Below the pieces are notes generated by a model. That model was not told where the DNA came from, made no database searches, and saw only the letters and a list, made by a program, of their open reading frames with translations. A stretch of DNA of 32,000 nucleotides from Thermoplasmatota archaeon (GTDB lineage Archaea; Thermoplasmatota; UBA186; UBA287): NCBI GenBank assembly GCA_034190325.1, contig JAXHST010000006.1, positions 1-32,000 on the forward strand, in the 5' to 3' direction. The position numbers and the translations under genes are program-made. Position 1 is the first letter of the stretch; the number at the start of each line of letters is the position of its first letter. Shown here piece after piece: positions 4,474 to 26,318 of the stretch.

Positions 4474-4557
4474 CTGCTATGAAAAGGTTATGAAAGATAT
4501 AAGGTTAGCTGCAAACAGTAGAAAATCTTATTAGTAAAAACTCCTCTCCATTTTAGA

Positions 4558-4666
4558 GGGCCTGTAGCTCAGCTAGGTAGAGCAGTCGGCTCTTAACCGA
4601 CCTGCCGGGGGTTCAAAACAGCCTATGAACGCTGTGCGGAAAGGCGTGAAAATCCCCTCAGGCCCG
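4558..4666 (+). tRNA. tRNA-Lys (anticodon CUU) with a ~35-nt intron inside the T-loop
   Basis: Hand-folded cloverleaf. Acceptor GGGCCTG/CAGGCCC, D-arm GCTC-AGCTAGGTA-GAGC, anticodon arm GTCGG-CTCTTAA-CCGAC (CTT at 4592-4594). Variable loop CTGCC, T-stem GGGGG (4607-4611) / CCCCT (4654-4658). 42 nt lie between the T-stem halves instead of 7. Discriminator G; no encoded CCA. Confidence 0.85.
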
Positions 4667-4704
4667 CTCAGCAACATTTATTAAGTAAAAGGCCGAATAC
4701 ACTT

Positions 4705-5265
4705 ATGAAGGAGGAGAAGGAAGCGTTTAGAGAATCTCAGGATATCATAAAAAAGTTGGTAAATGAGCTTCCATACCCTGATGAGCATGGGAAGGTAATA
4801 AGGCTCAACAGAAGGTTTGTGCTTCTTGACGTTTCTTACATCCCCTTTGATGTCCTCTATGGAATAGACGAAATTTTTGGTCCTGTATCAAAGACCATAC
4901 TCTTCAGGATTGGTAGAAGATGGGGTGATGAGATCTACGCAAGGTATGAATCCCTTGGTTTTGGTAGAGAGGATTGTCTGAAGCTCTCTGCGGCTGGGGC
5001 ATGGTACTTTGGATGGGGGATTTTTACATTCGAACTAGGAGCTGAAAGCTCCAGAGCAAGGATATACAACTCATTTGAGGTTGAGAGCATGGTTGTGCGT
5101 AAGGGAATAAGCGATGAGAATTCATGTCACCTATTTCCTGGGGTTATATCTGGTATTTACAGTAGATTCCTTGGAGAAGAGTGCTCAATACACGAGGAAA
5201 AGTGTGCAGCCAGAGGTGATGGATACTGTGAGCTGGTTGCTACTCCAGGGATCGATTTGACCTGA
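4705..5265 (+). CDS. V4R (4-vinyl-reductase-type) domain protein
   Basis: 186-aa ORF. The C-terminal HLFPGVISGIYSRFLGEECSIHEEKCAARGDGYCEL matches the V4R signature (aromatic/Gly helix followed by C-x3-G-D-x2-C). Confidence 0.7.
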   Translation: MKEEKEAFRESQDIIKKLVNELPYPDEHGKVIRLNRRFVLLDVSYIPFDVLYGIDEIFGPVSKTILFRIGRRWGDEIYARYESLGFGREDCLKLSAAGAWYFGWGIFTFELGAESSRARIYNSFEVESMVVRKGISDENSCHLFPGVISGIYSRFLGEECSIHEEKCAARGDGYCELVATPGIDLT

Positions 5266-5304
5266 GGTGAGGAAAGCTTAAATGCTCTTTCTTCTCTTTT
5301 CTTT

Positions 5305-6813: not shown

Positions 6814-6838
6814 GAGCTGAGAAAAAGGTGGTGATAGA

Positions 6839-7204
6839 GTGCGAAAATTCAGAGTTAAAGTGGATGGAAAAGAGTACGTTGTTGAGGTTGCAGAAGAAGG
6901 AGCGCAGAGCGTAACGAAGGTAACGGAAGGAGAAACTGAAGTAAGAGAGGCGCAGAGGCAAGCGCCGACCACACACATAGAAGCGCCGTCAGAGGGAAAC
7001 GTTACAGCGCCGATTGCAGGGAAGATATTGAAGACATTAATAAGAGAGGGGGAGCACGTAGAAGAGGGCAAAGTTCTGTTTGTCCTTGAGGCAATGAAAA
7101 TGGAGAATGAGATCTATGCACCTAAGACAGGAGCAATTAAAAAGATCTATGTCAAAGAGGGGGAAAACGTTGAGGAGTCTCAGCCTCTGTGCGATATAGT
7201 CTAA
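6839..7204 (+). CDS. biotin carboxyl carrier / decarboxylase gamma-type biotinyl protein
   Basis: 121-aa ORF with a GTG start preceded by GGTGGTGA. Biotinylation motif LEAMKMENEI. N-terminal MRKFRVKVDGKEYVVEV is typical of decarboxylase gamma subunits. Confidence 0.85.
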   Translation: MRKFRVKVDGKEYVVEVAEEGAQSVTKVTEGETEVREAQRQAPTTHIEAPSEGNVTAPIAGKILKTLIREGEHVEEGKVLFVLEAMKMENEIYAPKTGAIKKIYVKEGENVEESQPLCDIV

Positions 7205-7287
7205 AGTAGAGTAAAAAAATAAGCGGGTAGATCAAACATCGTAAAAATGGTAAAACGAATAAACAAGAAAGATATTATTAATAATGT

Positions 7288-7719
7288 ATGGCTGAAGCAA
7301 TAACCGAAATGATCTTCTTTATAGTGGGCATATCCATAGCCCTATCTGTGATAGGAGCGGTTGTTTTATCAACAGAGAGGATGAATAGTGCTATGGGAGC
7401 TACAAGCTCGGCCCTTTATGATACGATGAGCTCAAAGATAAAGATAATAAGTGATCCCCTCTCCATGAGCGGCTCGCCATCAAAGCCATTGATTATTTAT
7501 GTGCAGAACGTGGGTAAAACTACCCTGAGCACAAATGCTGTGCTGATGATAGACGGAGAGGTAAAGGAGTGCAGGGAATACATGCTTGAGGGTGAGGTAT
7601 GGACTCCTTCTTCCGTGCTCTGCCTCGAGATAGAGCACCCCAGGCTTCCAGAGGGAGAGCACAGAGTGACAGTGGTGGCTGAAAATGGCGTTATGAATTC
7701 GATGGTCTTCAGGGTGTAA
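7288..7719 (+). CDS. archaellum FlaF/FlaG (ArlF/ArlG)-family protein
   Basis: 143-aa ORF. Has an N-terminal hydrophobic helix (EMIFFIVGISIALSVIGAVVL) followed by a beta-rich domain. It lies immediately upstream of arlH. Assignment to F versus G is not resolvable by eye. Confidence 0.65.
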   Translation: MAEAITEMIFFIVGISIALSVIGAVVLSTERMNSAMGATSSALYDTMSSKIKIISDPLSMSGSPSKPLIIYVQNVGKTTLSTNAVLMIDGEVKECREYMLEGEVWTPSSVLCLEIEHPRLPEGEHRVTVVAENGVMNSMVFRV

Positions 7720-7721
7720 AA

Positions 7722-8423
7722 ATGTACGAAATAGATCTTGATAGGGACAGGATGGGGCAGAGGCTTGGTGGAGGATTTCCAAAAGGCTCACTCGTTCTCA
7801 TGATGGGGCCATTCGGTAGTGGCAAATCTATTCTATGCCAGAGGTTTACCTATGGTTTTCTGAAGCACGATCATTCTGTTACATACACATCAACGGAGCT
7901 GACAACAAAAGGTTTCATTGAGCAGATGGGTTCCCTTGATTACCCTGTTGAGAGTTACATATACCACAGAAAGCTTCTGTATATCCCTGTTTATCCGATA
8001 ATAGGCAGAGCTGCGGATAGAAGCGGATTTTTGACCAAGCTCCTGGGCCCCAGAGCAAAAGCGCTATATTTAAATGAGACAATTGTCATAGATTCACTTT
8101 CTTCACTCATAGGTCAGGATCTTGAGAGCAAAAAGAGGGCTTTGGACGTTCTCTCATTCTTCAAGAAGCTGGCAGAGACAAAGAACAGGTGTGTGATCAT
8201 GACAGTAGATCCCGCGGAGATGCCCGATGAAATACTCTTAACCTTCAAAGCGGTCTGCGATGTGTTTCTAACCGTAGAGACCGTGATCGCTGAGGGGGGA
8301 GATGTGCTTCACAGGCTTACGGTTAACAGGTTTTTGAATCCTGAGAGAAGGATTACTGGCACAACAATGTTCAGGGTAGAGCCACATGCAGGAACTGTTG
8401 TTGAGATCGCAGAGGTAGCATGA
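7722..8423 (+). CDS. arlH: archaellum protein ArlH (FlaH), KaiC/RecA-like ATPase
   Basis: 233-aa ORF. GGGFPKGSLVLMMGPFGSGKS is an intact Walker A. Position between the FlaF/G-like gene and arlI. Confidence 0.85.
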   Translation: MYEIDLDRDRMGQRLGGGFPKGSLVLMMGPFGSGKSILCQRFTYGFLKHDHSVTYTSTELTTKGFIEQMGSLDYPVESYIYHRKLLYIPVYPIIGRAADRSGFLTKLLGPRAKALYLNETIVIDSLSSLIGQDLESKKRALDVLSFFKKLAETKNRCVIMTVDPAEMPDEILLTFKAVCDVFLTVETVIAEGGDVLHRLTVNRFLNPERRITGTTMFRVEPHAGTVVEIAEVA

Positions 8424-10045
8424 TAACAGCAGACCTTTTGAACGAGGCTATAAGCAGAAACCCCCATCTGGGTGAGTATCTACGCAGATATGAGCAGCAG
8501 TATGGTGTTACACCGGAGTTCCATGAACAATTGACCTATGATATGAGATACCTGAAAACTCCGAACATGATATACCCGGTGGGGGATCCCATTTTCATTC
8601 ATATCCATACAGATACTTCATCCGAAGAGATCCGGTATACCGCAATAGAGCCCCAGCTGAGCGAAGAGGCTGAGAGCAAAAGGAAGAGGATAATGGGCTA
8701 TATCTATGATAAGGTGCCCGAGGTGGACTTTGAGAAGGAGACGGATATAAGGAGTATTATACTGAGGCTCTATGATGAGGCTGTTTCTGCAAAGAGATCC
8801 TTTTTTAAGAGAGGTAGTATACACGTCAGCAAAGAGGAATATGAGCTGATAAAGTACTACATCCAGAGGGATACCCTGGAGCACGGAAAGCTTCAGCCGC
8901 TGATGAAGGATCCCTACATTGAGGATATACACTGCATAGGTCTAGATCCAATACACCTCAACCACAAAATATTTCAGATGGTGGAGACGAACATCAGCTT
9001 CACAAGCTGGGAGGATCTCGATGAATATCTGAAGATGCTTGGGGAGAAGGTAGGAAGCCCCGTCTCTGAGGGGCACCCTATAATCGATGCAGCCATGCCC
9101 GATGGCTCCCGACTGAATGTGGTCTACTCAAAGGACGTGAGTATAAGGGGCTCCAGTTTTACCATAAGAAAGTTCGCTGAGGAAGCAATAAGCGTAACCC
9201 AGCTCATAAAGTTTGGAACTTTAAGCGCAGAGGTTGCTGCCTATGTGTGGTTATGTTTGGAAAATGACACGAGCCTCTTCATGTGCGGTGAAACAGCAAG
9301 CGGTAAGACAACGACGCTCAATGCAATAATTCCTTTCATACCATCTGATGCAAAGATCTATAGCGTGGAAGAAACGCCAGAGCTTCATATCCCGCATGAA
9401 ACATGGCAGCAGATGTTAACAAGGGATACAGGGCAGGAGCAGGGCAATGTGACAATGTTTGATCTCCTGAAGGCTGCTCTGCGTTCAAGACCACACTATG
9501 TTATAGTTGGTGAGATCAGGGGACCTGAGGGCGCTATAGCCTTTCAAGCAATGCAGACAGGGCACCCTGTCCTATCAACATTCCATGCTTCATCAGTAAG
9601 AAAGATGATCCAGAGGCTTAGCGGGAGCCCCATCAACGTTCCTATACAGTTTATGGACCTGTTAAATGCAGCAATATTCCAGCAGATAGTCTATGTGAAG
9701 GGAGTCCTTGAGAGGAGAGTCACAAGCGTTGAAGAGGTCATAGGTTATTCCAGAGAGAGCCAGGGGGTGGTAACAAGAAAGATATTTTCTTATGATCCTG
9801 CTAGAGATGAGCACAGGTTTGATGGGCTCTTCAATTCCGCTGTGCTTGAAACAAAGATAGCCCCACGTTACGGAATAGAGGATCCTAGAGAGGTATATGC
9901 TTTGCTTGAAAAGAGGGCAAAGATACTTCAGTTGCTTGCTGATGCCAATATAGTGAGCTACAGGAGGGTTACACAGCTAATGAATGATTATCGTAGAGAG
10001 GGTGACAAAGCTCTGCCAGTCGAGATAAGAGCGCAGGTGCGTTGA
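8420..10045 (+). CDS. arlI: archaellum motor ATPase ArlI (FlaI), type II/IV secretion ATPase family
   Basis: 541-aa ORF. Walker A GETASGKTTTLNA, then VGEIRGPEG and the His-box region TGHPVLSTFHA. ATGA overlap with arlH. Confidence 0.95.
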   Translation: MITADLLNEAISRNPHLGEYLRRYEQQYGVTPEFHEQLTYDMRYLKTPNMIYPVGDPIFIHIHTDTSSEEIRYTAIEPQLSEEAESKRKRIMGYIYDKVPEVDFEKETDIRSIILRLYDEAVSAKRSFFKRGSIHVSKEEYELIKYYIQRDTLEHGKLQPLMKDPYIEDIHCIGLDPIHLNHKIFQMVETNISFTSWEDLDEYLKMLGEKVGSPVSEGHPIIDAAMPDGSRLNVVYSKDVSIRGSSFTIRKFAEEAISVTQLIKFGTLSAEVAAYVWLCLENDTSLFMCGETASGKTTTLNAIIPFIPSDAKIYSVEETPELHIPHETWQQMLTRDTGQEQGNVTMFDLLKAALRSRPHYVIVGEIRGPEGAIAFQAMQTGHPVLSTFHASSVRKMIQRLSGSPINVPIQFMDLLNAAIFQQIVYVKGVLERRVTSVEEVIGYSRESQGVVTRKIFSYDPARDEHRFDGLFNSAVLETKIAPRYGIEDPREVYALLEKRAKILQLLADANIVSYRRVTQLMNDYRREGDKALPVEIRAQVR

Positions 10046-10046
10046 A

Positions 10047-11705
10047 ATGAATGGCGCAAATGCATACAAGGTTATGAAGAAAGATTCTTTCAGTTATAAC
10101 CTTCTCTACACTCTGCCTGTTGCTCTGGTTACATTCCTTCTTGCTTTTTATGTTATGTTTCTCGGTTATGGTCTTGTCTATTCTGTACTTTTCATAATCC
10201 TAGCAGCAGTATGCACACTCTTTGTTGCCCTTTATCCATTCATGAACGCGTATGTGAGAAACAATCAGATAAACAATCTCATGCCCTTAATTATAACCCA
10301 CTTAGCTACGCTCTCTACCTCCCCCATGAACAGGGACCAGATAATAGACGAAATAATAGAGAGAAAAGAATATGGGCCTGCTGTTGAAGAGTTCATGAGG
10401 GTAAATGAGCTTACAAAGAATTTAAATATAAGCTTTGCTGATGCCTGCAGGATTCAGGCAAAAAGGACCACAAGCCAGACTATGGCTGACTTTTTTGACA
10501 GGCTCGCTAACTCAGCAGATGCAGGGGAGCGGTTCTCCACATTTCTGAATAACGAGCAGCGGTCAGCTTTTCAAATCTATGAGATAGCGTATGCTGGCTC
10601 TATAAACACGCTAGATCTCACAAAAGAGGTTTACATAAGTGCGATATCTTCCATACTATTTATGCTCATAATGCTGTGTATCCTTCCATTCATTCAGGCA
10701 GCTCCGATAACTATGTATGTAATGCTATCAATAATCCTCTTCCTGGTAACCATCCTGTGTCTTGTTTTTGGGGTGAGGCTAATTCTGCCAGCGGATCCCA
10801 TATGGGTACAAAACCGGAAAAAGACAGAGGTTGATAGAAGGATAAAGCTTTACTCTGCGATATCAATTCCTTTTTGCTTTGTGGTTTTTTTCATCTTTGC
10901 CTACCTCTTACCTTTTATCCCCCTACAGATTGATGTTGCCGCAGCACTAACGCCACCCATTTTCTGTGGTTATTATGCGAGAAAGGAGCAGGCAAAGGTA
11001 AACAACAGGGATGAAAACTATCCAACATTCATAAGGGCTGTAGGAAGCACCGCAGGGGTTGTTAAGAAGATAGAGGGTTCTATAGAAAGGCTGAGCACCC
11101 ACGAGTTCGGGAATCTGAGTGAGATGATAAGCAATTTGAATAAAAGGCTGAAAACCAAGATAAAAGCTACCGAAGATCCGTGGCATACCTTCGGCAGAGA
11201 GAGTGGTAGCTACCTCATATACGAATTCACACACATGTTTGCTTCCTCAATAGATGCGGGAAGTGATATAGCTAAGGGAGCTATAACAATAAATAACAAT
11301 TTCCTGAGTATCCTGGGCATGAGAAAGAAGCGCTTCCAGTCAGCCGCAGGTTATAGATGGGTTGTCTATGGTGTTGGTGTTAGCGTAGGCATAGTTTTTT
11401 CCATAGCATTCAGCGTTATTTTTATGATGCAGGATCTTTATGGCATGGTCTCTGCATCTACATTTTCAACCGAGTACCTGGGGAGCATGTTCACCGCTAC
11501 AGCACCCCTTCCCTACATAATGAAGCCCATAGCATCAATAATAATCATAGTTGCATATTCCATAGCTGGTGCATTTGTGATAAAGGATTCTGAGAGTGGC
11601 AGGGATGCCACAATGTTTGTTGACGTGGTAGGGATAGCATGGCTTTTAGCCATCTCCTGGGTTATCAGTGATGTCGTCATGAGCTGGGCTACTGCAGGAA
11701 TATGA
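10047..11705 (+). CDS. arlJ: archaellum membrane platform protein ArlJ (FlaJ)
   Basis: 552-aa polytopic membrane ORF directly after arlI. Shows the two-repeat FlaJ/TadC-like organisation, with cytoplasmic domains between TM bundles. Confidence 0.85.
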   Translation: MNGANAYKVMKKDSFSYNLLYTLPVALVTFLLAFYVMFLGYGLVYSVLFIILAAVCTLFVALYPFMNAYVRNNQINNLMPLIITHLATLSTSPMNRDQIIDEIIERKEYGPAVEEFMRVNELTKNLNISFADACRIQAKRTTSQTMADFFDRLANSADAGERFSTFLNNEQRSAFQIYEIAYAGSINTLDLTKEVYISAISSILFMLIMLCILPFIQAAPITMYVMLSIILFLVTILCLVFGVRLILPADPIWVQNRKKTEVDRRIKLYSAISIPFCFVVFFIFAYLLPFIPLQIDVAAALTPPIFCGYYARKEQAKVNNRDENYPTFIRAVGSTAGVVKKIEGSIERLSTHEFGNLSEMISNLNKRLKTKIKATEDPWHTFGRESGSYLIYEFTHMFASSIDAGSDIAKGAITINNNFLSILGMRKKRFQSAAGYRWVVYGVGVSVGIVFSIAFSVIFMMQDLYGMVSASTFSTEYLGSMFTATAPLPYIMKPIASIIIIVAYSIAGAFVIKDSESGRDATMFVDVVGIAWLLAISWVISDVVMSWATAGI

Positions 11706-19592: not shown

Positions 19593-20027
19593 ATGTTTAT
19601 GGATGAAGGATATGAGTATGAGATTCCAAAAATGAAGCCCCGCATAGGCTTTATTCTCTCTGTTATTGCAGGAATGCTTATAATTCTGAGCGCTGTGATG
19701 GTTTTGTACCTTGGGGTCAATCCATCCCTGCTTGAAGCTGAAGAGATGCAGGGGACACTGCAGGAGCTTGCTGAGCGCTCTGGTATGGAAACCTCTGAGG
19801 TCATGGATCTTATGTCCTCAATGTATCTTGGTATGGGGATCTTTGGTGTTGTTTCTGGCTTGCTTATCCTGCTGGGAGGAGCTTTAGCTTACTATCGCGG
19901 TTTCAGGGTTGGTGGGGGAGTAATTGTTCTTCTCTTCTCCATCCTATCTCTATTTGGTGGTGGAGGGTTATTCTTAGGACTGATACTTGGGGTCATAGGT
20001 GGGGTTTTGATACTGATGAACCGTTAG
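19593..20027 (+). CDS. small integral membrane protein, Gly-rich TM helices, unknown function
   Basis: 144-aa ORF with about 3 predicted TM segments, for example GGVIVLLFSILSLFGGGGLFLGLILGVIGGVLIL. No recognisable motif. Confidence 0.5.
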   Translation: MFMDEGYEYEIPKMKPRIGFILSVIAGMLIILSAVMVLYLGVNPSLLEAEEMQGTLQELAERSGMETSEVMDLMSSMYLGMGIFGVVSGLLILLGGALAYYRGFRVGGGVIVLLFSILSLFGGGGLFLGLILGVIGGVLILMNR

Positions 20028-20503
20028 ATCTTCAGCAGACCTATAAACCTATCAGCGCTGGAATTTGCCCACTCAAAAAAGGTAAAGGGCGCATCGCGCA
20101 GGGGGCTATTGCAGAAAGGCAGCCTTGCGAGCAGCGGTAGCGCAAGGTCTGAGAGTCTGCTCATGAATGAAAAGTAGTTTGACATGTATGCGCACATAGC
20201 AGAGATTATAAAGAAAGAGGACAGATCAAAGCATTTGTTTATGCTCCCTCTAATAGTTTCAATGTGCAAAGGGATGAGCGAAAGCTCTCCCAGCGTAAGA
20301 GCTTCTATCACTTCATTTATTGAGTCAGCCAGCTCATTTAGAAATAAAAGATCGCAGAGGAAAAGGACAAACTTCCTCATGGAAAAATGCTCTCCTGACG
20401 CAGGTGCCCTGGCAGATACCTCGCCCTCTTCAACCTGCGCCTTAGCCAGAGGGAGAATGAGGAGAATAAAAAAAAAGAAAAAAGAAAAAGCGAGCCCCCT
20501 CAC
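20024..20503 (-). CDS. hypothetical protein with signal-peptide-like N-terminus (last gene of the Roadblock/GTPase operon)
   Basis: 159-aa ORF with a 4-nt overlap with the upstream KaiC-like gene. N-terminus is MRGLAFSFFFFFILLILPLAKAQ. No recognisable family. The antisense ORF 20184-20507 looks like low-quality sequence. Confidence 0.45.
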   Translation of the reverse strand: MRGLAFSFFFFFILLILPLAKAQVEEGEVSARAPASGEHFSMRKFVLFLCDLLFLNELADSINEVIEALTLGELSLIPLHIETIRGSINKCFDLSSFFIISAMCAYMSNYFSFMSRLSDLALPLLARLPFCNSPLRDAPFTFFEWANSSADRFIGLLKI

Positions 20504-21240
20504 CTGATTCTCCCTATCTCAAAAGCTCCTGTCACATCGATAGTGCTCTTCTCAAGCCGGTATTCGACCCAGTTTCTGGATTTTGTCCCTCCAAAGCCCT
20601 GAAGCCTCAGATATAACTTTGACTCTCTAGTCTCTTCTTTAAACTCTAAGACTCCATCCATTATCCCTTTGAATAACTGAACCTCAGATTCGGGATGCAC
20701 CCCCGCGCCCATCACAAACATTGTTGTTGCTCCTGCGCTCTTTGCTCTACCTTTCATGATCTGAACGAACCTGAAGACCGTAGGGGCATTGGTGTTCGTT
20801 ATAAGGGTAGTGAGAGAGTCAAGGACTATGAGGTGATGCATATGCTTTCCCATGACCATCTGCTGTGCTTTGTTTAGCGCCAGGTTGATAGCAGCAAGAT
20901 CCATAGGGCTAGGTACATACTCTATGTATTTGTCCTTCTCTGTTACCCCTATGCTCATGGAATAGACATCCATGTATCTGACAAGTCCATTTGTTTCATA
21001 TGTTTGATATTTTGAATCCAGACTGGTTAACTCATCTCTCAGCTGGGTGGCAGGGGCATCTGTTGTTATGAATATTGTGGGTATTCCATGTCTCAAACAC
21101 TCAACAGAAAAGTTTTTTACAAACTGCTCTTTCCCTATGAATGGTGGTCCATACACCAGAAAAGCAGATCTGGCAGGAATGCCGCCCATAAGGAGAGTAT
21201 CCAGCCCTTCTATACCCGTAACAAGTTTTCTATCGCTCAT
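20500..21240 (-). CDS. KaiC/RecA-like (RAD55-type) protein with atypical Walker A
   Basis: 246-aa ORF. TGIEGLDTLLMGGIPARSAFLVYGPPFIGKEQF, where the Walker A reads GPPFIGKE (21127-21150), with Glu in place of Ser/Thr. Walker-B-like HHLIVLDSLTTL. Confidence 0.75.
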   Translation of the reverse strand: MSDRKLVTGIEGLDTLLMGGIPARSAFLVYGPPFIGKEQFVKNFSVECLRHGIPTIFITTDAPATQLRDELTSLDSKYQTYETNGLVRYMDVYSMSIGVTEKDKYIEYVPSPMDLAAINLALNKAQQMVMGKHMHHLIVLDSLTTLITNTNAPTVFRFVQIMKGRAKSAGATTMFVMGAGVHPESEVQLFKGIMDGVLEFKEETRESKLYLRLQGFGGTKSRNWVEYRLEKSTIDVTGAFEIGRIR

Positions 21241-22409
21241 TTTTCTTCCTCCTTTCTATGCAGTATTAAATCAACCAGGGTCTCAAATGCTTTAAGCACA
21301 TGTTCTTTATCCTTTGCAACACACGGAAGTATTGGTATCTCCTCCGGCAGCCTCATCCTCTCCTTTATTTCTTCAGGCGGCAAAGCTCCCGGCTCATCCT
21401 GTTTGTTTGCCAGGAATATTATGGGCATCCCGGTCTTCCATACCTCCTGCCACATGGCCTTTGATCTATCGAATGTCTCCGGTCTTGCGCTGTCAACCAT
21501 GACTATTGTGCCTATTGCATTCAGCGATAGTGTTCTTAGCAAAGGGTCAAACCTTTCTTGTCCGGGGGTTCCGAATATGTCTGCGCTCACACCCGCATGC
21601 TCTACGTGTCCATGGTCCAGCGCAATGGTTGTCCCGAGCCTGTCAACGGATACTGCCCTTGTAGATAGGGTATGTATGAACGTTGATTTACCAGAGTGAA
21701 AGGGTCCTGTGACTATGATCTTTGGTATGTACACTCTCACACCCCCGGGCTTTATGACCTTGAACATAACGGATCTGTTTTCTATGTTCTCGAGCCATCT
21801 TGCCTTAGCTACCTCAAAATACTCTCCGAAAACAACTCTTTGCTCTATACCCTTTATATTTATAAGACAATCAACATCCCTTATCTTCTCTATTGTTTTT
21901 TCATCATACGGCCAGAGTATGAAAGACAAAAAGGTTGTTGTTGCTTTTTTAAAGGTCTCTTTTAACTTTTCAAGGTTCTCAACGAAGCTCTGCTCCCCAC
22001 AGTAGTCAACAAGTGTTGAGAGAGCAGGTATAGCAAGAATGCCCCCCTCTACAGAATCCAGCGCCTTTTCTATGGTCTCTATTATCTCTTTTATATCATT
22101 CGGGTGTTTGACAATAAACTCTGCATCGGAGGGTGCGCCTATCAACATGGAGTAGCAGTCAACAAAAACTACCCTGCTTCTATACCGCTCCAGACTCCAT
22201 CCATATTCCTCAAATTCCCTCAATAGATACTGCGGGGGTTTTGAAAGAGCTACAATAACCCCCTCCTTCCCTGCAGAGATATTCTCATAAAATGCCTGGT
22301 ACACAAAGGGATCACCTTCGACGGTGGGTTCTGTGAGAAAAAGAACAGTGCTACCCCCGGGTATGGAACCCAGCATCTCATCCAGCACCACTATGTTAGT
22401 ATTAACCAT
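21237..22409 (-). CDS. fusion protein: degenerate KaiC-like domain (aa 1-225) plus Ras-like small GTPase (aa 229-385)
   Basis: 390-aa ORF. The N-domain is paralogous to the downstream KaiC-like protein (LGSIPGGSTVLFLTEPTVEGDPF; VFVDCYS; GGILAIPALSTL) but has no GK[ST] and no Walker B Asp. The C-domain has G1 GPFHSGKST (21681-21707), G3 DIFGTPGQERF, G4 NKQD and a G5-like CVAK. Confidence 0.8.
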   Translation of the reverse strand: MVNTNIVVLDEMLGSIPGGSTVLFLTEPTVEGDPFVYQAFYENISAGKEGVIVALSKPPQYLLREFEEYGWSLERYRSRVVFVDCYSMLIGAPSDAEFIVKHPNDIKEIIETIEKALDSVEGGILAIPALSTLVDYCGEQSFVENLEKLKETFKKATTTFLSFILWPYDEKTIEKIRDVDCLINIKGIEQRVVFGEYFEVAKARWLENIENRSVMFKVIKPGGVRVYIPKIIVTGPFHSGKSTFIHTLSTRAVSVDRLGTTIALDHGHVEHAGVSADIFGTPGQERFDPLLRTLSLNAIGTIVMVDSARPETFDRSKAMWQEVWKTGMPIIFLANKQDEPGALPPEEIKERMRLPEEIPILPCVAKDKEHVLKAFETLVDLILHRKEEEK

Positions 22410-22413
22410 TTTT

Positions 22414-22932
22414 CTATTCCCCCTTCTCTTTCAGAACTATCCTGCATCTATCGTCTCCCTTTGCTAAGCATTCCTCCTCCGTACTCTCATATTTTTTGTT
22501 GTAGAGCTCGGAGAAAAAGCCAGCAAAGTAACCTGCAAAATAAGAGTCCGCTGCCCTTCCTTTTGCCCTCTTTCCTATAGGAAAGCCTTTGCTCGCTGTG
22601 ATGTAGATCTCCTTACTGTTTTCCTCTATTTCTATCTCAACATCACCTATCCCCGTGGCTTTTGTGAATTCGCACAGCTTTTTTAGAGCTTCTTCCCCAG
22701 CCTCTCCCGCAAAATCTCTGTAAACACTTTTTCCATAGTCCTCCCCCACGAAGTAGAGAAGTGTTGCTGCAGGAGCTCCTACTATCCTTGTGATCCTCTC
22801 ATAGAGGGAGAAGAAGAGGTCACTCTTAACCAGGATGACCGAGGTTGAGTCTATCTCCAATCCTTCATTGAACTTCAGTTTTTCTTTCCACTCTTTGAGC
22901 AGGTCTTCAGCCTTTTCGCTTTTGTATAGCAT
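22414..22932 (-). CDS. V4R domain protein
   Basis: 172-aa ORF. DSYFAGYFAGFFSELY ... EECLAKGDDRCRIV is the V4R C-terminal signature, C-x3-G-D-x2-C. Confidence 0.7.
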   Translation of the reverse strand: MLYKSEKAEDLLKEWKEKLKFNEGLEIDSTSVILVKSDLFFSLYERITRIVGAPAATLLYFVGEDYGKSVYRDFAGEAGEEALKKLCEFTKATGIGDVEIEIEENSKEIYITASKGFPIGKRAKGRAADSYFAGYFAGFFSELYNKKYESTEEECLAKGDDRCRIVLKEKGE

Positions 22933-22936
22933 ACTT

Positions 22937-23317
22937 TCACCCCAGTATCTCCTTTATTCTGTTCACAGCCTTCTCTGCCTGTATAAAGAGCATGCCCAGG
23001 TTGACATTGTATCTGCAGAGGATAACCAGCAGAGTATCGGCACTGGCGCCCGTTATAATCATGCGGGTTGTCTTTGTCTCCACAAGAACCCTCTCAGGAG
23101 GATCCCTGGCCAGCTCCATCATTGCTGTTTCGGCTGCGCCGAGCATCGTAGCGCTCATAGCCGAAAAAGCTTCCTTACCAACCCTTGTTGGAAGGTGCGA
23201 TATTATGATAAGCCCGTCTCTAGAGACTATCGCACTCCCTTCTATTCCCGTCAGCCTATCAAGGTCCTGAAGCACCTCGTTTAGCATTTCCTGTTTTGTT
23301 TCTGCCATTTTAACCAC
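22937..23317 (-). CDS. Roadblock/LC7 (MglB-like) domain protein
   Basis: 126-aa ORF. LTGIEGSAIVSRDGLIIISHLP ... AFSAMSATMLGAAETAMMEL ... VLVETKTTRMIITGASADTLLVIL follows the alpha-beta-beta-alpha-beta-beta pattern typical of Roadblock/LC7. Confidence 0.8.
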   Translation of the reverse strand: MVKMAETKQEMLNEVLQDLDRLTGIEGSAIVSRDGLIIISHLPTRVGKEAFSAMSATMLGAAETAMMELARDPPERVLVETKTTRMIITGASADTLLVILCRYNVNLGMLFIQAEKAVNRIKEILG

Positions 23318-23777
23318 CTACCGTTACCAGATCCAACACCTCTTCACTTCCTTCCTGCTCCGGGAGGAGCCTGAAACTGAGTCTGTTGACAGCAACGCTC
23401 ATGTTGAAGTAGTCATTTAGAAAAGCCATTGCGACAGCTGAAAGGAAGGTGCATGGATGTTTATTGCTGCGTACGAGCTTTTCTATCCTTTCATAATCAA
23501 ATATGTTATAGCTCTTTATATAAATTTCACTATTTTTTCTCTCCACAATTATCTTATTGCAGTATCCTTCCTCTTCATAATGATGAAGAAGTTCGCTGAG
23601 AGAGACAACAGGATCTTTAAGATCTTTGGGTATCCACTTTCTAGCTTCAGCCCTTTTTAACAGTGTACCCCCTATACGCCTTACTATTGCTGGTGTTGAG
23701 ACTCCAAACAGATCCGAGATTGAAGAGGTTAGAGAATACAGCAGAACATTAGCGAGATCTTTCTTCACCTTTGCCAT
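23310..23777 (-). CDS. V4R-like fold protein lacking the C-terminal Cys motif
   Basis: 155-aa ORF. By eye it aligns segment-for-segment with the neighbouring V4R protein: LLYSLTSSISDLFGVSTPAIVRRIGG versus LYERITRIVGAPAATLLYFVGE; SEIYIKS versus KEIYITAS; HPCTFLSAVAMAFLNDYF versus DSYFAGYFAGFFSELY. It has no CxxxGDxxC tail. Confidence 0.4.
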   Translation of the reverse strand: MAKVKKDLANVLLYSLTSSISDLFGVSTPAIVRRIGGTLLKRAEARKWIPKDLKDPVVSLSELLHHYEEEGYCNKIIVERKNSEIYIKSYNIFDYERIEKLVRSNKHPCTFLSAVAMAFLNDYFNMSVAVNRLSFRLLPEQEGSEEVLDLVTVGG

Positions 23778-23821: not shown

Positions 23822-23932
23822 CGGACGCGGGGGGATTTTCATGCAGGTTTTGAAAGGATGAAATCCTTCATTTTGAACCCCCGACTCCCGGCTTAGGAGG
23901 CCGGTGCCTTATCCAAGCTAGGCCACGCGCCC
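23822..23932 (-). tRNA. tRNA-Arg (anticodon CCU) with a ~36-nt intron inside the T-loop
   Basis: Hand-folded on the minus strand. Acceptor GGGCGCG/CGCGTCC (one G-U), D-arm GCCT-AGCTTGGATA-AGGC, anticodon arm CCGGC-CTCCTAA-GCCGG (CCT = plus 23895-23897). Variable loop GAGTC, T-stem GGGGG/CCCCC. 43 nt (23835-23877) lie between the T-stem halves instead of 7. Discriminator G; no CCA. Confidence 0.85.
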
Positions 23933-24470: not shown

Positions 24471-24911
24471 ATGACTACGCCGTTTGATGTTGGTGCAGAC
24501 CTCCTGATCGAGAGGTTGGCTGAGAAGCTTAGGAGCGATGAGAATGAGAATATAAAGCCCCCAGAGTGGGCAGGATACGTGAAAACAGGAGCGCAAAAAG
24601 AAAAATTGCCAGCGCGGAAAGATTGGTGGTATATCAGATCTGCAGCGGTGTTGAGGAAGCTTTACATTAAAGGCCCTCTGGGAGTTGAAAGGTTAAGAGC
24701 AGAGTATGGTGGAGCCAAGAGAAGAGGGTGCAGACCTCAAAAAGCCACCAAAGGAAGCGGGGCTATTATAAGAGAGATTTTGCAACAGCTTGAAAGCGCT
24801 GGTGTCGTCTCAAAAGTAGAGAAAGAAGGAAGAGCTTTGACACCGAAGGGAAGGGCTCTTCTAGACTCTGTTGCCTATGAGCTTAGAGTAGAGAGCAGAG
24901 AGGTGAGTTAA
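24471..24911 (+). CDS. rps19e: 30S ribosomal protein eS19
   Basis: 146-aa ORF. Contains PEWAGYVKTGAQKEKLP, DWWYIRSAAVLRKLYIKGPLGVERLRAEYGG and GSGAIIREILQQLE. Confidence 0.95.
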   Translation: MTTPFDVGADLLIERLAEKLRSDENENIKPPEWAGYVKTGAQKEKLPARKDWWYIRSAAVLRKLYIKGPLGVERLRAEYGGAKRRGCRPQKATKGSGAIIREILQQLESAGVVSKVEKEGRALTPKGRALLDSVAYELRVESREVS

Positions 24912-24947
24912 ACGGACGAAGAACTTGAAAAGCTAAGAAAAAAGAGA

Positions 24948-25235
24948 ATGCAGGAGCTCCTACAACAGCAGCCTGGCGTGGAGGAAGAGAGGGAAGAAAA
25001 AGAGCAGGGGGAGAGAAAAGAGATCCTGAGAAGGATAATGACCCCGGAAGCAAGGGAGAGGCTCTCCAGGGTAAAGCTTGTGAAGCCAGAGTTTGCTCAA
25101 CAGATAGAGGAGCAGCTCATATATCTTGCACAGAGTGGCAGACTTAGATCGCAGGTTGATGATGCCATGCTTAAAAAAATACTTGCGCAGTTACAGCAGG
25201 ATAAGGATATAAAGATAAGGAGGATAGAGAAATGA
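24948..25235 (+). CDS. PDCD5/TFAR19-like dsDNA-binding protein (COG2118 family)
   Basis: 95-aa [26 protein letters not shown] ... [11 protein letters not shown] is typical of the family. The homologous-looking N-terminal codons (TDEELEKLRKKR, 24912-24947) lie upstream of the first ATG. Confidence 0.8.
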
Positions 25236-25387
25236 GCAGAAATAAGACAACGGGACTTAAGAGAAGATTAATGAAAGCAAAGAACAGCAATCGCAGGGTT
25301 CCTGCATGGGCTATAATGAGGACTGAAAGGAAGCTCATGTTCAACACCAAGCAGAGGAACTGGAGAAGGAGAAAGCTTAAAATATAG
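25232..25387 (+). CDS. rpl39e: 50S ribosomal protein eL39
   Basis: 51-aa ORF not in the supplied track: [57 protein letters not shown] lies at 25219-25224. ATGA overlap with the preceding gene. Confidence 0.9.
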
Positions 25388-25401
25388 CTGGGAGATGGAA
25401 T

Positions 25402-25671
25402 ATGGACGAAGCGGAGAGAGGAATACTTGAGCGTGTTTATACTATTCCGATAGATTTTAAGAATATACCAAAGAAGCAAAGAGCCAGGAGAGCTATAAAA
25501 GAGGTAGAGCACTTCATAGAGAGGCACATGAAGTCAGATTCTGTCTGGATAGATAACAGGATAAATGAGATCATATGGGCAAGGGGTGCTGAAAATCCGC
25601 CATCCAGGATAAAAGTTAAGGCAACAAAGTTCGAGGATGGCCTTGTGGAGGTAGTTCCGCTGGAAGAATGA
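25402..25671 (+). CDS. rpl31e: 50S ribosomal protein eL31
   Basis: 89-aa ORF. Contains ERVYTIPI, KKQRARRAIKEVEHFIERHMK, VWIDNRINEIIWARGAENPPSRIKV. Confidence 0.9.
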   Translation: MDEAERGILERVYTIPIDFKNIPKKQRARRAIKEVEHFIERHMKSDSVWIDNRINEIIWARGAENPPSRIKVKATKFEDGLVEVVPLEE

Positions 25672-26318
25672 TGCTGCAGCTTGATTTCGATGGAAGCGAT
25701 TTCATAGGTATCTATGGAAGGATATGCGATAAATACGGTGTTTTTGGATCCAATGTTCCGGATGCAACCATAAAAGAGGTAGAAAAGAACCTGGGCATAG
25801 AGGCTATAAAGACGACAATAGCATATGTCAATATAACAGGCTCAATGCTCGCCATGAATTCAAATGGAATGATGGTCAATAACTTTATAAATGAGAAAGA
25901 AAAGAAAAAACTCGAGGGGCTGGGCTTGAACATCGGTTATACTGCTCCAAACATGAACGCTGCGGGAAATATAATACTGGTGAACGATAAGCGAGCGCTG
26001 GTGCATCCTAAGATTCCAAAGCTCAAAGACATGGAGGATATCTTTGGTGTTGAAGTGGTTAGAGAAGATATAGGCTTTCGGAACGTTGGCATGGTATTCG
26101 CACTGACAAATAAAGGGGTGCTTTGCCATCCGGATCTTAGCGATGAAAAGGTAAAGATGATAGAAGAGCTGTTTGGCGTTAAAGGGAGCTGGGGCACAGT
26201 AAATCACGGCATGCCTTTTGTTGGTTGCGGGCTGGTATGCAATTCGAAAGGTGTTGTTATAGGAAAGAGAACAACAAGGATAGAGATGACAAGGATCCAG
26301 GACGCTTTAGATTTTTGA
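25668..26318 (+). CDS. eif6: translation initiation factor 6 (aIF6)
   Basis: 216-aa ORF showing the pentein-repeat pattern, with repeated G(S/N).(V/I)G motifs: DFDGSDFIGIYG, NITGSMLAMNSNG, NAAGNIILVNDK, RNVGMVFALTNKG, FVGCGLVCNSKG. Confidence 0.9.
   Translation: MMLQLDFDGSDFIGIYGRICDKYGVFGSNVPDATIKEVEKNLGIEAIKTTIAYVNITGSMLAMNSNGMMVNNFINEKEKKKLEGLGLNIGYTAPNMNAAGNIILVNDKRALVHPKIPKLKDMEDIFGVEVVREDIGFRNVGMVFALTNKGVLCHPDLSDEKVKMIEELFGVKGSWGTVNHGMPFVGCGLVCNSKGVVIGKRTTRIEMTRIQDALDF

What the first reader, a model, noticed from the sequence alone, without database searches (positions are those of the whole stretch)
21237..22409. Fusion of a catalytically dead KaiC-like domain to an intact Ras-like GTPase
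Residues 1-225 align by eye with the downstream 246-aa KaiC-like protein. Examples are GSIPGGSTVLFL versus GGIPARSAFLVY, VFVDCYS versus RYMDVYS, and ILAIPALSTL versus LIVLDSLTTL. The P-loop position, however, reads TEPTVEGDPF with no GK[ST]. The Walker B Asp is replaced too: the motif reads AIPALS instead of VLDSLT. Residues 229-385 carry complete G1 (GPFHSGKST), G3 (FGTPGQERF) and G4 (NKQD) motifs. This implies a pseudo-ATPase scaffold tethered covalently to a small GTPase, an arrangement that could couple oligomeric KaiC-like ring assembly to a GTP switch.
Basis: seen in the sequence. Interest (0 to 1): 0.7.

Follow-up and report, generated by a model that had tools for sequence, protein, structure and literature searches.

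The report
Dead KaiC domain fused to GTPase
This archaeal gene really does encode one protein in which a KaiC/RecA-like domain that has lost its ATP-handling residues is joined without a linker to an MglA-type small GTPase. It belongs to a large, conserved and uncharacterised archaeal family that always travels with a Roadblock regulator and a second KaiC-like protein, so it looks like an unstudied archaeal G-protein signalling module.

Summary
ORF 21237-22409 (-) encodes 390 aa: a KaiC/RecA-fold domain (residues 1-228) and a small GTPase (229-390). The N-domain lacks the Walker A Lys/Thr, the catalytic Glu pair and the Walker B Asp.

It is not a frameshift artefact. More than 1,000 protein clusters share the architecture. 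They span Thermoplasmatota, Methanosarcinales/ANME-2/Methanoperedens, Methanocellales, Methanobacteria, Archaeoglobi and many DPANN lineages, and their GTPase domains form one clade.

- The GTPase is MglA-family (G3 is GTPGQ, not DxxGQ; G2 is TT). It is related to the CvnD GTPase of actinobacterial conservons, not to classical Ras.
- The neighbouring 246-aa KaiC-like protein is itself non-canonical (Walker A reads GK-E).

The conserved module is a KaiC-like partner, the fusion protein and a Roadblock/LC7 protein. This lineage adds a V4R protein and a possible second V4R/Bet3-like protein.

Best reading, inferred and not shown: a Roadblock-regulated GTP switch rigidly coupled to a KaiC-type pseudo-ATPase scaffold that pairs with the KaiC-like partner. 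That would be an archaeal counterpart of the conservon G-protein systems.

Inactivated KaiC domains are a published concept. I found no description of this fusion or module in the searchable literature.

The parts
21237..22409 (-). Gene for the 390-aa iKaiC-GTPase fusion protein (stop codon 21237-21239)
   Evidence: ORF; Pfam KaiC + Ras/Arf; 100% identical protein in an NCBI Thermoplasmatota MAG and hundreds of full-length homologues
21726..22409 (-). Inactivated KaiC/RecA-fold domain, residues 1-228
   Evidence: Family profile vs PDB: PH0284 2e-26, PH0186 3e-24. Foldseek 2dr3 TM 0.84, rmsd 2.3 A. Under purifying selection: pN 0.12 vs pS 0.83 against L007
22311..22334 (-). Degenerate Walker A site TEPTVEGD (residues 26-33): Lys replaced by Gly32, Ser/Thr by Asp33
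   Evidence: Translation; alignment to PH0284 GGPGTGKT. No main-clade fusion has the Lys; a few divergent members keep a DK[ST]-type remnant
22239..22244 (-). Ser56-Lys57 at the position of the catalytic Glu-Glu pair of KaiC-like ATPases
   Evidence: Alignment to PH0284 'VALEEHP' vs family 'valsksp'; translation
22017..22040 (-). Degenerate Walker B site ILAIPALS (residues 124-131): Asp replaced by Pro128
21702..21755 (-). Domain junction IKPGGVRVYIPKIIVTGP (residues 219-236). AF2 predicts one continuous beta-strand (223-234) running from the KaiC-like domain into beta-1 of the GTPase, with no linker
   Evidence: AF2 secondary structure, pLDDT 89.9, pTM 0.85; P221 G222 G223 P229 K230 G235 invariant
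21240..21725 (-). MglA-family small GTPase domain, residues 229-390
   Evidence: Pfam Ras/Arf; 32% identity, E 1e-22, to the CvnD of a verified S. griseus conservon; best PDB sequence matches are Arl8/Arf
21684..21707 (-). G1/P-loop GPFHSGKS (G235, G240, K241, S242 invariant)
21627..21641 (-). Switch I RLGTT: invariant Arg257 and G2 Thr260-Thr261
   Evidence: the TT feature of MglA groups 2-5 (PMC4316618)
21558..21572 (-). G3 GTPGQ (Gly280 in place of the Ras Asp57; Gln284 is the catalytic Gln)
   Evidence: the GTPGQ hallmark of MglA groups 2-5
21396..21407 (-). G4 NKQD, guanine specificity, invariant
20500..21240 (-). Partner: 246-aa single-domain KaiC-like protein with Walker A GPPFIGKE and Walker B LIVLDS. 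Its start overlaps the fusion's stop (ATGA)
   Evidence: Pfam KaiC 2e-25, DUF7504, DUF7090; orthologues adjacent in 35/38 fusion loci; overlap seen in sequence
22414..22932 (-). 172-aa V4R-domain protein, immediately upstream of the fusion
   Evidence: Pfam V4R 6.5e-10; conserved in L007; V4R genes also near fusion genes in L010, L028, L030
22937..23317 (-). 126-aa Roadblock/LC7 (MglB/CvnB-like) protein
   Evidence: Pfam Robl_LC7 3e-14; PDB Asgard roadblock 7f8m 3e-14, CvnB5 3leq 3e-7; adjacent in 31/33 fusion loci with flank available
23310..23777 (-). 155-aa first gene of the operon, lineage-restricted, possibly a divergent V4R/Bet3-fold protein (weak evidence)
   Evidence: No Pfam hit; 7 homologues; AF2 pLDDT 76; Foldseek top hit Thorarchaeota TRAPPC3, TM 0.52, E 4e-3, then Bet3, MopR/PoxR, H-NOX, BcsD; hhalign vs V4R not significant
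20024..20503 (-). 159-aa ORF overlapping the partner's stop. Conserved in the closest relative only; function unknown; membership of the module uncertain
   Evidence: ORF; homologue at the same position in L007, 2e-32; no Pfam hit

Best explanation
The gene encodes a member of an ancient archaeal protein family (~390 aa). In it an inactivated KaiC/RecA-fold domain ('iKaiC') is fused, rigidly and without a linker, to an MglA-family small GTPase of the GTPGQ type. It is one component of a conserved module.

Proposed roles of the parts:
1. The GTPase domain is the switch. It binds and hydrolyses GTP.
2. The adjacent Roadblock/LC7 protein, probably as a dimer, is its GAP and/or GEF, as MglB is for MglA and CvnB/MfpD is for CvnD/MfpB.
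3. The iKaiC domain no longer turns over ATP. It serves as a docking and oligomerisation platform that pairs with the co-encoded, paralogous single-domain KaiC-like protein. That partner keeps the P-loop lysine, so it may still bind nucleotide.
4. The nucleotide state of one partner is thereby transmitted to the other.
5. In this Thermoplasmatota lineage a V4R protein (a small-molecule-binding fold), and possibly a second V4R/Bet3-like protein, supply sensory input or help nucleotide exchange.

Functionally this would be an archaeal G-protein signalling system, in which a KaiC-type hub stands where the conservon has its histidine kinase.

Shown: the architecture, the motif losses, the fold, conservation, monophyly of the fusion, gene linkage and purifying selection.
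Inferred: GTPase activity, the Roadblock GAP/GEF role, the iKaiC-partner hetero-oligomer, the direction of signal flow, and the cellular output, which is unknown.
For: Architecture and fold.

Loss of Walker A Lys/Thr, catalytic EE and Walker B Asp.

GTPase motifs invariant across the family (G1 GxxxxGKS, TT, GTPGQ, NKQD).

GTPGQ + TT is the published hallmark of MglA groups 2-5, which are coupled to MglB: PMC4316618.

Relation to CvnD: 32% identity, E 1e-22, to the GTPase of a S. griseus locus that I verified as HK-Roadblock-DUF742-GTPase. The Roadblock protein matches CvnB5 and Asgard roadblocks.

Precedent for the Roadblock role: in conservons the Roadblock protein MfpD is a GAP and DUF742 MfpC is a GEF for the GTPase (PMC13343842).

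Linkage: partner KaiC-like gene present in 35/38 fusion loci; Roadblock in 31/33 loci with flank. Two gene orders occur (partner-fusion-Roadblock and Roadblock-fusion-partner), so linkage survives rearrangement. Genes abut or overlap, with ATGA between fusion and partner here.

Partner and N-domain are paralogues: hhalign 99.7%.

Rigid coupling: continuous strand 223-234, pTM 0.85, invariant junction residues.

Both domains are under purifying selection: pN/pS about 0.15 and 0.12.

Single origin of the fusion: all 37 fusion GTPase domains form one NJ clade.
Against: No biochemical datum exists for any member that I could find.

The hetero-oligomer is inferred from gene linkage only. I could not run a multimer prediction.

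The partner is heterogeneous. Type A reads GK[E/D/G/N] and often lacks the Walker B Asp. Type B reads canonical GPPKTGKS. 'The partner' may therefore not have one uniform role.

Three loci (L013, L020, L038) lack a partner within the flank, and two (L008, L033) lack a Roadblock.

V4R genes accompany the module in only 5 of 38 loci, so any V4R role is lineage-specific.

Divergent members (an Aenigmatarchaeota MAG, a Nanohaloarchaea MAG and an unclassified archaeal MAG) keep a DK[ST]-type P-loop remnant (L036 reads EKR), and many lineages keep the Walker B Asp. 'Dead' therefore may not hold for the whole family.

By sequence the GTPase domain's best solved relatives are Arl8/Arf rather than MglA.

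The NJ tree has no support values.
Confidence: 0.55

Rival explanations
1. Assembly or sequencing frameshift artificially joined a KaiC-like gene and a GTPase gene.
For: One relative (Hadarchaeota MAG L035) has the two halves in two overlapping ORFs in different frames, so split forms or frameshifts do occur.
Against: An identical 390-aa protein is in an independent NCBI MAG. More than 100 full-length homologues of 43-96% identity share the architecture. About 90 full-length representatives (50%-identity clusters) match in one stretch over both domains. There are 1,193 clusters at E <= 1e-60. The fusion occurs in many phyla. The junction is invariant and modelled as one strand.
Confidence: 0.01
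2. The N-domain is not dead. It still binds a nucleotide or a phospho-ligand through a non-canonical pocket, and the protein is a two-nucleotide (ATP + GTP) device like the tandem CI-CII domains of KaiC.
For: The loop keeps a P-loop-like Pro-Gly-x-Glu-Gly with near-invariant P28, E31, G32. Divergent members retain DK[ST] at the Walker A position (L036 reads EKR), and many lineages retain the Walker B Asp. Foldseek aligns the whole fusion over about 440 columns of double-domain KaiC, but at rmsd 11-13 A.
Against: In this protein and its clade all four catalytic elements are gone: Lys, Ser/Thr, the Glu pair and the Walker B Asp. Acidic residues (Glu31, Asp33) sit where phosphates would bind.
Confidence: 0.1
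3. The iKaiC domain is an ArlH-like adaptor that docks onto archaellum or type IV pilus ATPase hexamers. The module would then control motility or polarity, as MglA/MglB does in Myxococcus.
For: ArlH is a KaiC-like protein, and the window carries archaellin-like/arlH/arlI/arlJ genes at 7288-11705. Roadblock proteins are often encoded in archaeal T4P loci (PMC4858521). Bacterial stand-alone relatives of the GTPase lie next to T2SSE ATPases in several Actinomycetota MAG loci.
Against: None of the other 37 fusion loci has an ArlI/ArlJ homologue in its flanks. In the window the archaellum genes are about 8 kb away, on the other strand, with unrelated genes between. The family is present in many DPANN lineages.
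Confidence: 0.1
4. The module acts in translation or ribosome biogenesis, as many prokaryotic GTPases do. The KaiC-like parts would be incidental scaffolds.
For: The module lies beside YhbY/S19e/PF01984 genes in Methanoperedens, beside YhbY in Methanosarcinales, and next to the S19e-PF01984-L31e-eIF6 string in this Thermoplasmatota lineage.
Against: This neighbourhood occurs in only three lineages and in different orientations (divergent here). No such genes were found in the other loci. The GTPase belongs to the MglA/CvnD switch type, not to the TRAFAC ribosome-assembly GTPases.
Confidence: 0.07

Closest known systems
Actinobacterial G protein systems (conservons: CvnA histidine kinase, CvnB Roadblock, CvnC DUF742, CvnD GTPase; the Mfp system of mycobacteria)
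   Same: The GTPase is homologous: FGTPGQERF is identical, TT(V/I)A(I/L)D(F/H)G is shared, and identity is 32% at E 1e-22. A Roadblock/MglB-type gene is adjacent. An ATP-binding signalling protein is encoded in the same operon. Some systems add a small-molecule-sensor accessory protein (GAF there, V4R here).
   Different: There is no histidine kinase and no DUF742. A KaiC-like protein stands in the operon instead. The GTPase is covalently fused to a dead KaiC-like domain. It lacks the bacterial insertion between G1 and G2. The system is archaeal.
MglA/MglB polarity switch (Myxococcus, Thermus); MglA family groups 2-5 of Wuichet & Sogaard-Andersen 2014
   Same: The G3 GTPGQ and G2 TT signature of groups 2-5, and coupling to a Roadblock gene. 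Group 4 is the archaeal (methanogen) group.
   Different: That census excluded proteins longer than 240 aa and reported no conserved neighbours for archaeal group 4. Here the protein is 390 aa with a strictly conserved neighbourhood. It lacks the group-1 intrinsic Arg next to the G2 Thr, but has a different invariant Arg257 three residues upstream.
Inactivated KaiC-like domains ('iKaiC') of archaeal signalling proteins (Makarova, Galperin & Koonin 2017, as cited in Galperin et al. 2018, PMC5847659)
   Same: A KaiC-superfamily domain with lost ATPase motifs, fused to another signalling domain and proposed to act in KaiC-centred hubs.
   Different: The fusions described in the text I could read are with REC, PAS and HalOD1 domains. 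I could not read the 2017 paper, so I cannot say whether it lists the GTPase fusion.
Single-domain archaeal KaiC-like ATPases PH0284 / PH0186 / SSO2452 and ArlH
   Same: Same fold and length for the N-domain (TM 0.81-0.85). PH0284 crystallises with six chains.
   Different: Those proteins have an intact GxxGxGKT, EE and Walker B. The N-domain here has none of them and carries a C-terminal GTPase.
Eukaryotic and Asgard TRAPP (Bet3/TRAPPC3 + longin subunits, a Rab GEF) and Ragulator-Rag (Roadblock platforms for GTPases)
   Same: The operon combines a V4R fold (the Bet3/TRAPPC3 superfamily), a Roadblock fold and a small GTPase.
   Different: The GTPase is MglA-type, not Rab or Rag. The V4R link is lineage-restricted (5/38 loci). 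The Bet3-like assignment of the 155-aa protein is weak (TM 0.52; hhalign negative). No GEF activity is known.

Membership tests
KaiC/RecA-superfamily ATPase (PF06745) | RecA-like alpha/beta fold homologous to KaiC-like proteins | tested here: met
   Pfam E 2e-16; PDB profile hit PH0284 2e-26; Foldseek TM 0.84, rmsd 2.3 A
KaiC/RecA-superfamily ATPase (PF06745) | Walker A GxxxxGK[ST] | tested here: not met
   TEPTVEGD: Lys replaced by Gly32, Thr by Asp33. The Lys is absent in all main-clade fusion proteins
KaiC/RecA-superfamily ATPase (PF06745) | Catalytic Glu(-Glu) after beta-2 and Walker B hhhhD | tested here: not met
   Ser56-Lys57 and Pro128 at those positions
KaiC/RecA-superfamily ATPase (PF06745) | Hexameric ring, ATPase and autokinase activity | not testable with these tools
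   Needs biochemistry or a multimer model; only single chains could be predicted
MglA family of small GTPases, groups 2-5 (Wuichet & Sogaard-Andersen 2014) | G1 GxxxxGK[ST], G4 [NT]KxD, catalytic Gln in G3 | tested here: met
   GPFHSGKS, NKQD and Gln284, all invariant in 22 sequences
MglA family of small GTPases, groups 2-5 (Wuichet & Sogaard-Andersen 2014) | G3 reads GTPGQ (no Asp) and G2 carries Thr-Thr | tested here: met
   G280-T-P-G-Q284 and T260-T261 invariant; criterion from PMC4316618
MglA family of small GTPases, groups 2-5 (Wuichet & Sogaard-Andersen 2014) | Genetically coupled to an MglB/Roadblock gene | tested here: met
   Roadblock gene at 22937-23317; present in 31/33 fusion loci with flank
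MglA family of small GTPases, groups 2-5 (Wuichet & Sogaard-Andersen 2014) | Single-domain protein of 150-240 aa | tested here: not met
   390 aa with an N-terminal 228-aa domain. [quoted passage not shown]
MglA family of small GTPases, groups 2-5 (Wuichet & Sogaard-Andersen 2014) | Placement inside the MglA clade in a phylogeny that includes Rup, Arf and Ras outgroups | not tested
   My NJ tree holds only relatives found through MglA-type motifs. PDB sequence search ranks Arl8/Arf first, and MglA is not in the top 60
Actinobacterial G protein system / conservon | CvnD-type GTPase and CvnB Roadblock in one operon | tested here: met
Actinobacterial G protein system / conservon | CvnA histidine-kinase-like protein and CvnC (DUF742) | tested here: not met
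   No HATPase_c or DUF742 in the operon's proteins. Both were found by the same method in the S. griseus control locus
TRAPP-like GEF core | Bet3/TRAPPC3 (V4R-superfamily) subunits together with longin/roadblock-fold subunits | tested here: inconclusive
   172-aa protein: Pfam V4R 6.5e-10. 155-aa protein: Foldseek TRAPPC3/Bet3 TM about 0.5, E 4e-3, but hhalign vs V4R gives 1.9% probability. Roadblock present
TRAPP-like GEF core | Nucleotide-exchange activity on a Rab-type GTPase | not testable with these tools
   Requires biochemistry. The GTPase is MglA-type, not Rab

The most novel reading that the evidence does not exclude
The module is a distinct, ancient archaeal 'G-protein / KaiC' signalling system. 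An MglA-type GTPase is hard-wired to a pseudo-KaiC subunit that co-assembles with a nucleotide-binding KaiC-like paralogue into a mixed ring, so that a GTP switch gates a KaiC-type timer or hub, or the reverse. In some lineages V4R (Bet3-superfamily) and Roadblock proteins would form a TRAPP/Ragulator-like GEF/GAP platform. That would make it a prokaryotic relative of the logic by which eukaryotes regulate Rab and Rag GTPases.
Probability: 0.2. Interest if true: 0.8.

Novelty: new variant of a known kind. Interest (0 to 1): 0.55.

Why it matters
Small GTPase switches with Roadblock regulators are known from bacterial polarity (MglA/MglB), from actinobacterial conservons, and from eukaryotic Rag/Ragulator and TRAPP. 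Their archaeal counterparts are almost unstudied.

This family appears to have fallen outside the main census of prokaryotic small GTPases, which dropped proteins longer than 240 aa and reported no conserved neighbourhood for the archaeal group. Here the neighbourhood is strict: KaiC-like partner, fusion protein, Roadblock. It spans methanogens, ANME and Methanoperedens methane oxidisers, Thermoplasmatota and DPANN.

If the model is right, it links the two signalling currencies proposed for archaea, KaiC-type hubs and G-proteins, in one complex. It would be a tractable case of a pseudo-ATPase acting as a scaffold. It would also be a further data point on the pre-eukaryotic history of GTPase-Roadblock-V4R/Bet3 partnerships.

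Tried and rejected
- **Pairwise BLASTP of the fusion against the downstream 246-aa protein.** Not significant. Replaced by profile-profile comparison, which is decisive.
- **Makarova et al. 2017 (PMC5717392 / doi 10.1128/mBio.01959-17).** Not held in the library, so prior description of this exact fusion could not be checked.
- **Other literature searches.** Searches for iKaiC, KaiC + MglA/MglB, KaiC + small GTPase, and fusion phrases found nothing describing the fusion. A COG2229/Roadblock search returned only irrelevant 'roadblock' papers.
- **afdb50 fold search.** The library was unavailable.
- **Is the 155-aa first gene a V4R protein?** No Pfam or PDB sequence hit. BLASTP and hhalign against V4R were negative. 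Only a weak fold resemblance was found. Left as 'possible'.
- **Link to archaellum or pilus genes.** No ArlI/ArlJ in any other fusion locus.
- **Link to ribosomal genes.** Seen in three lineages only.
- **dN/dS between the window and L007.** Synonymous sites are saturated, so only pN and pS are reported.
- **Search for a cultured, genetically tractable host.** The top 120 relatives of a Methanosarcinaceae member are all from MAGs or metagenomes.
Full report
**What is there**

The minus strand carries a tightly packed gene string:
- 23310-23777: 155 aa
- 22937-23317: 126 aa
- 22414-22932: 172 aa
- 21237-22409: 390 aa, the finding
- 20500-21240: 246 aa
- 20024-20503: 159 aa

Neighbouring genes are separated by 4 nt or overlap by 4-8 nt. 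The fusion's stop and the 246-aa gene's start share ATGA. The string is preceded by a tRNA gene and a TATA-like TTTATTTAATAT, so it probably has its own promoter. This promoter reading comes from the sequence alone.

Pfam assigns Roadblock/LC7 to the 126-aa protein, V4R to the 172-aa protein and KaiC to the 246-aa protein. For the 390-aa protein it assigns KaiC on residues 2-228 (E 2e-16) and Ras/Arf on residues 230-382 (E 3e-11). The rest of the window (AglB, Nep1, S19e, L31e, eIF6, archaellum genes) is archaeal. An identical protein is deposited from a Thermoplasmatota MAG.

**Check of the observation**

A profile of 22 family members matches the solved single-domain KaiC-like ATPases PH0284 (E 2e-26) and PH0186 (3e-24). 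In that alignment:
- GGPGTGKT faces the family's iePgvegd. In this protein that is T26-E-P-T-V-E-G32-D33, so Lys becomes Gly and Thr becomes Asp.
- The catalytic Glu-Glu faces Ser56-Lys57.
- The Walker B Asp faces Pro128.

The AF2 model is confident (pLDDT 89.9, pTM 0.85).

The by-eye alignment to the downstream protein is invisible to BLASTP. Profile-profile comparison confirms it: 99.7% probability, E 1e-25, same residue pairings.

**Not an artefact**

- More than 100 full-length proteins of about 389 aa at 43-96% identity share the architecture.
- In a library of 1.84 billion representatives (50%-identity clusters), 107 score E <= 1e-30. About 90 of these are 360-415 aa and match in a single stretch across both domains.
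- A second search seeded with a Methanosarcinaceae member found 1,193 clusters (90% identity) at E <= 1e-60.
- A scan of one genome per species found the full-length form in Methanocellales, Methanosarcinales/ANME-2/Methanoperedens, a Halobacteriota MAG, Archaeoglobaceae, Methanobacteriaceae, Thermoplasmata, Altiarchaeota, Woesearchaeota, Parvarchaeota (ARMAN-4), Nanoarchaeota, Aenigmatarchaeota and Nanohaloarchaea.
- The junction PGGVRxYIPKILVTGP is nearly invariant. It is modelled as one beta-strand (223-234) that leaves the KaiC-like sheet and becomes beta-1 of the GTPase.
- In an NJ tree of GTPase domains, all 37 fusion proteins form one clade. The only non-fusion inside it is the Hadarchaeota locus L035, where the two halves are overlapping ORFs in different frames. 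Asgard stand-alone GTPases are the sister group. The tree has no support values.
- Against the closest relative (L007), non-synonymous differences are 0.12 per site in the N-domain and 0.095 in the GTPase domain, while synonymous sites are saturated (0.83 and 0.76). The 'dead' domain is therefore maintained by selection.

**How dead, and across the family?**

In all main-clade members the P-loop lysine is absent (PGVEG, PGIEN, PSVGN and similar). An Aenigmatarchaeota MAG, a Nanohaloarchaea MAG and an unclassified archaeal MAG read xxxDK[ST]; a fourth divergent MAG (L036) reads EKR.

The Walker B Asp is kept in the DPANN members and some other lineages. It is replaced in Methanosarcinales (G/E/S), Methanobacteria (N), ANME-2 (E) and this lineage (P).

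Inactivation therefore looks progressive, and it is complete in this protein.

The N-domain has its own invariant residues: D84, G91, P103, S131, D135, C137-G138-E139, W166-P167-Y168, G187, Y197 and W205. These point to a conserved non-catalytic function.

**What kind of GTPase**

G1 (GxxxxGKS), G4 (NKQD), the catalytic Gln284 and a G5 Ala are invariant. However, G3 is G280-T-P-G-Q, and G2 is T260-T261.

Wuichet and Sogaard-Andersen give exactly GTPGQ plus a Thr in place of the group-1 Arg as the signature of MglA-family groups 2-5. Group 2 is the conservon GTPase CvnD/MfpB, and group 4 is archaeal (PMC4316618).

The domain is 32% identical (E 1e-22) to the GTPase of a Streptomyces griseus locus. 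I verified that locus to be a conservon: HATPase_c kinase, Roadblock, DUF742, GTPase. As that paper predicts for archaeal members, the bacterial protein has an extra insertion between G1 and G2.

By sequence against solved structures the best matches are Arl8/Arl10, Arf3 and Asgard Arf GTPases (E about 4e-10). MglA itself is not in the top 60. I therefore treat MglA-family membership as supported by motifs and gene coupling, but not by a rooted phylogeny.

An invariant Arg257 sits three residues before the G2 Thr. From my own knowledge, this is the spacing of the Arg finger in G-alpha. Whether Arg257 acts as an intrinsic finger is speculation.

**The module**

I called ORFs in 38 fusion-bearing loci and searched them with the window's proteins.
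- A paralogous single-domain KaiC-like gene is present in 35 of them.
- A Roadblock gene is present in 31, which is 31 of the 33 where the relevant flank exists.
- Two orders occur. Partner-fusion-Roadblock is found in Methanoperedens, Methanosarcinales, Hydrothermarchaeales and most of the DPANN loci. Roadblock-fusion-partner(-partner) is found in Methanobacteria, ANME-2 and this lineage. The linkage has therefore survived rearrangement.

The partner comes in two flavours.
- Type A, including the window's protein, has GPP(M/F)xGK followed by E/D/G/N instead of Ser/Thr, and often N/E/V instead of the Walker B Asp.
- Type B has a canonical GPPKTGKS and DS. Methanobacteria have both types.

The Mg-coordinating Ser/Thr of Walker A and its hydrogen bond to the Walker B Asp are described as strictly conserved elements of P-loop catalysis (abstract of 10.1101/2022.06.23.497301). 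A type A partner may therefore bind nucleotide but is unlikely to be an efficient ATPase. That is an inference.

V4R genes accompany the module in this lineage (window, L007), in a Halobacteriota MAG with two tandem modules (L010), and at about 1.7 kb in two ANME-2 loci.

The 155-aa first gene is restricted to close relatives (7 homologues). Its model (pLDDT 76) resembles Thorarchaeota TRAPPC3, Bet3, the MopR/PoxR V4R domains, H-NOX and BcsD only weakly (TM about 0.5, E 4e-3). A profile comparison with V4R proteins is negative.

**How it most likely works**

The following steps are inferred, not shown.
- The GTPase domain is a GTP/GDP switch.
- The Roadblock protein acts on it as GAP and/or GEF. 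This is demonstrated for MglB on MglA and for MfpD (GAP) in the conservon, where DUF742 is the GEF.
- The iKaiC domain is locked to the GTPase by a shared strand. It offers RecA-type subunit interfaces to the co-translated KaiC-like partner.
- The complex thereby couples the partner's nucleotide or assembly state to the GTP switch. The direction of coupling is unknown.
- V4R proteins add ligand sensing, or help exchange, in some lineages. This would be analogous to the GAF accessory protein CvnF8, which modulates the conservon kinase.

In this view the archaeal module is the functional counterpart of the actinobacterial G-protein system, with a KaiC-type protein in the place of the histidine kinase. 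The output is unknown.

I give the architectural statements more than 0.95 and the functional model about 0.5.

**Rivals**

- Frameshift artefact: excluded (see above).
- Residual nucleotide binding by the N-domain: possible in divergent members, unlikely here.
- Motility control through ArlH-like docking: the window has archaellin-like/arlH/arlI/arlJ genes at 7288-11705, and Roadblock genes frequent archaeal T4P loci. However, no other fusion locus has ArlI/J nearby.
- Ribosome-related role, suggested by YhbY/S19e neighbours: seen in only three lineages.

**Novelty**

Inactivated KaiC domains in archaeal signalling proteins are a published concept (Makarova et al. 2017, as cited in PMC5847659). 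Databases label these proteins generically: 'GTP-binding protein', 'ATPase domain-containing protein', 'KaiC'.

I could not read the 2017 paper. Searches of the available literature found no description of a KaiC-GTPase fusion or of this module.

The main census of prokaryotic small GTPases excluded proteins longer than 240 aa and reported no conserved neighbours for archaeal MglA group 4.

I therefore rate it a new variant of a known kind: a Roadblock-regulated small-GTPase system. It is real and widespread, but mechanistically untested.

Noticed in passing
window 23822-23932 (-): A tRNA-Arg(CCT) gene interrupted by an insert of about 35 nt in the T-loop, apparently a non-canonical intron. 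ARAGORN finds no tRNA in the whole window. Rfam's tRNA model matches only the D and anticodon arms (18.1 bits, below gathering). After deleting the insert in silico, ARAGORN calls tRNA-Arg(cct). The gene lies just upstream of the operon.
   Followed up: partly
window 7288-11705 (+): Archaellum motor gene set: archaellin-like 7288-7719, KaiC-like ArlH 7722-8423, ArlI (T2SSE) 8420-10045, ArlJ (T2SSF) 10047-11705. This gives a second, canonical-context KaiC-like protein in the same window.
   Followed up: partly
window 4705-5265 (+): A second stand-alone V4R-domain protein (186 aa, Pfam V4R 1.3e-11), next to a carboxyltransferase gene at 5305-6813.
   Followed up: no
window 20500-21240 (-) and orthologues in L001, L003, L005, L006, L008-L012 and others: The partner KaiC-like family has a conserved deviant Walker A, GPPMxGK[E/D/G/N]: Lys kept, Ser/Thr lost. 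It often has N/E/V at the Walker B Asp. It matches the Pfam families DUF7090 and DUF7504. This is a second kind of probable pseudo-ATPase in the same module.
   Followed up: partly
L010 (Halobacteriota MAG) 3288-9173: Two tandem copies of the module in one locus: partner, fusion, Roadblock, V4R (possibly two ORFs), Roadblock, Roadblock, fusion, Roadblock.
   Followed up: no
L035 (Hadarchaeota MAG) 71-1293: The two halves of the fusion lie in two overlapping ORFs in different frames. Its GTPase nests inside the fusion clade. This is either a secondary split or an assembly frameshift.
   Followed up: no
L047, L048, L052, L054, L059, L063, L073, L077 (Actinomycetota and Coriobacteriia MAGs): Bacterial stand-alone relatives of the GTPase lie within a few kb of one or two T2SSE-type (pilus/secretion) ATPase genes, often with a Roadblock-domain gene.
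   Followed up: no
L001/L002/L012 7535-8640; L005, L009, L011, L037; window 24471-26318; L007 2059-3950: The module lies beside YhbY, S19e and PF01984 (dsDNA-binding) genes in Methanoperedens, beside YhbY in Methanosarcinales, and next to the S19e-PF01984-L31e-eIF6 string in the Thermoplasmatota lineage. This could be ancient synteny or chance.
   Followed up: partly
window 20024-20503 (-): A 159-aa ORF with a hydrophobic N-terminus, overlapping the partner's stop by 4 nt. It is conserved at the same position in L007 (2e-32) and has no Pfam match. A 107-aa ORF on the opposite strand (20184-20507) overlaps it.
   Followed up: no
L042 (Odinarchaeia MAG) 4010-4708: The closest Asgard relative of the GTPase domain is a 232-aa protein with G3 GTPGL (catalytic Gln replaced by Leu) and a C-terminal extension of about 70 aa.
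   Followed up: no
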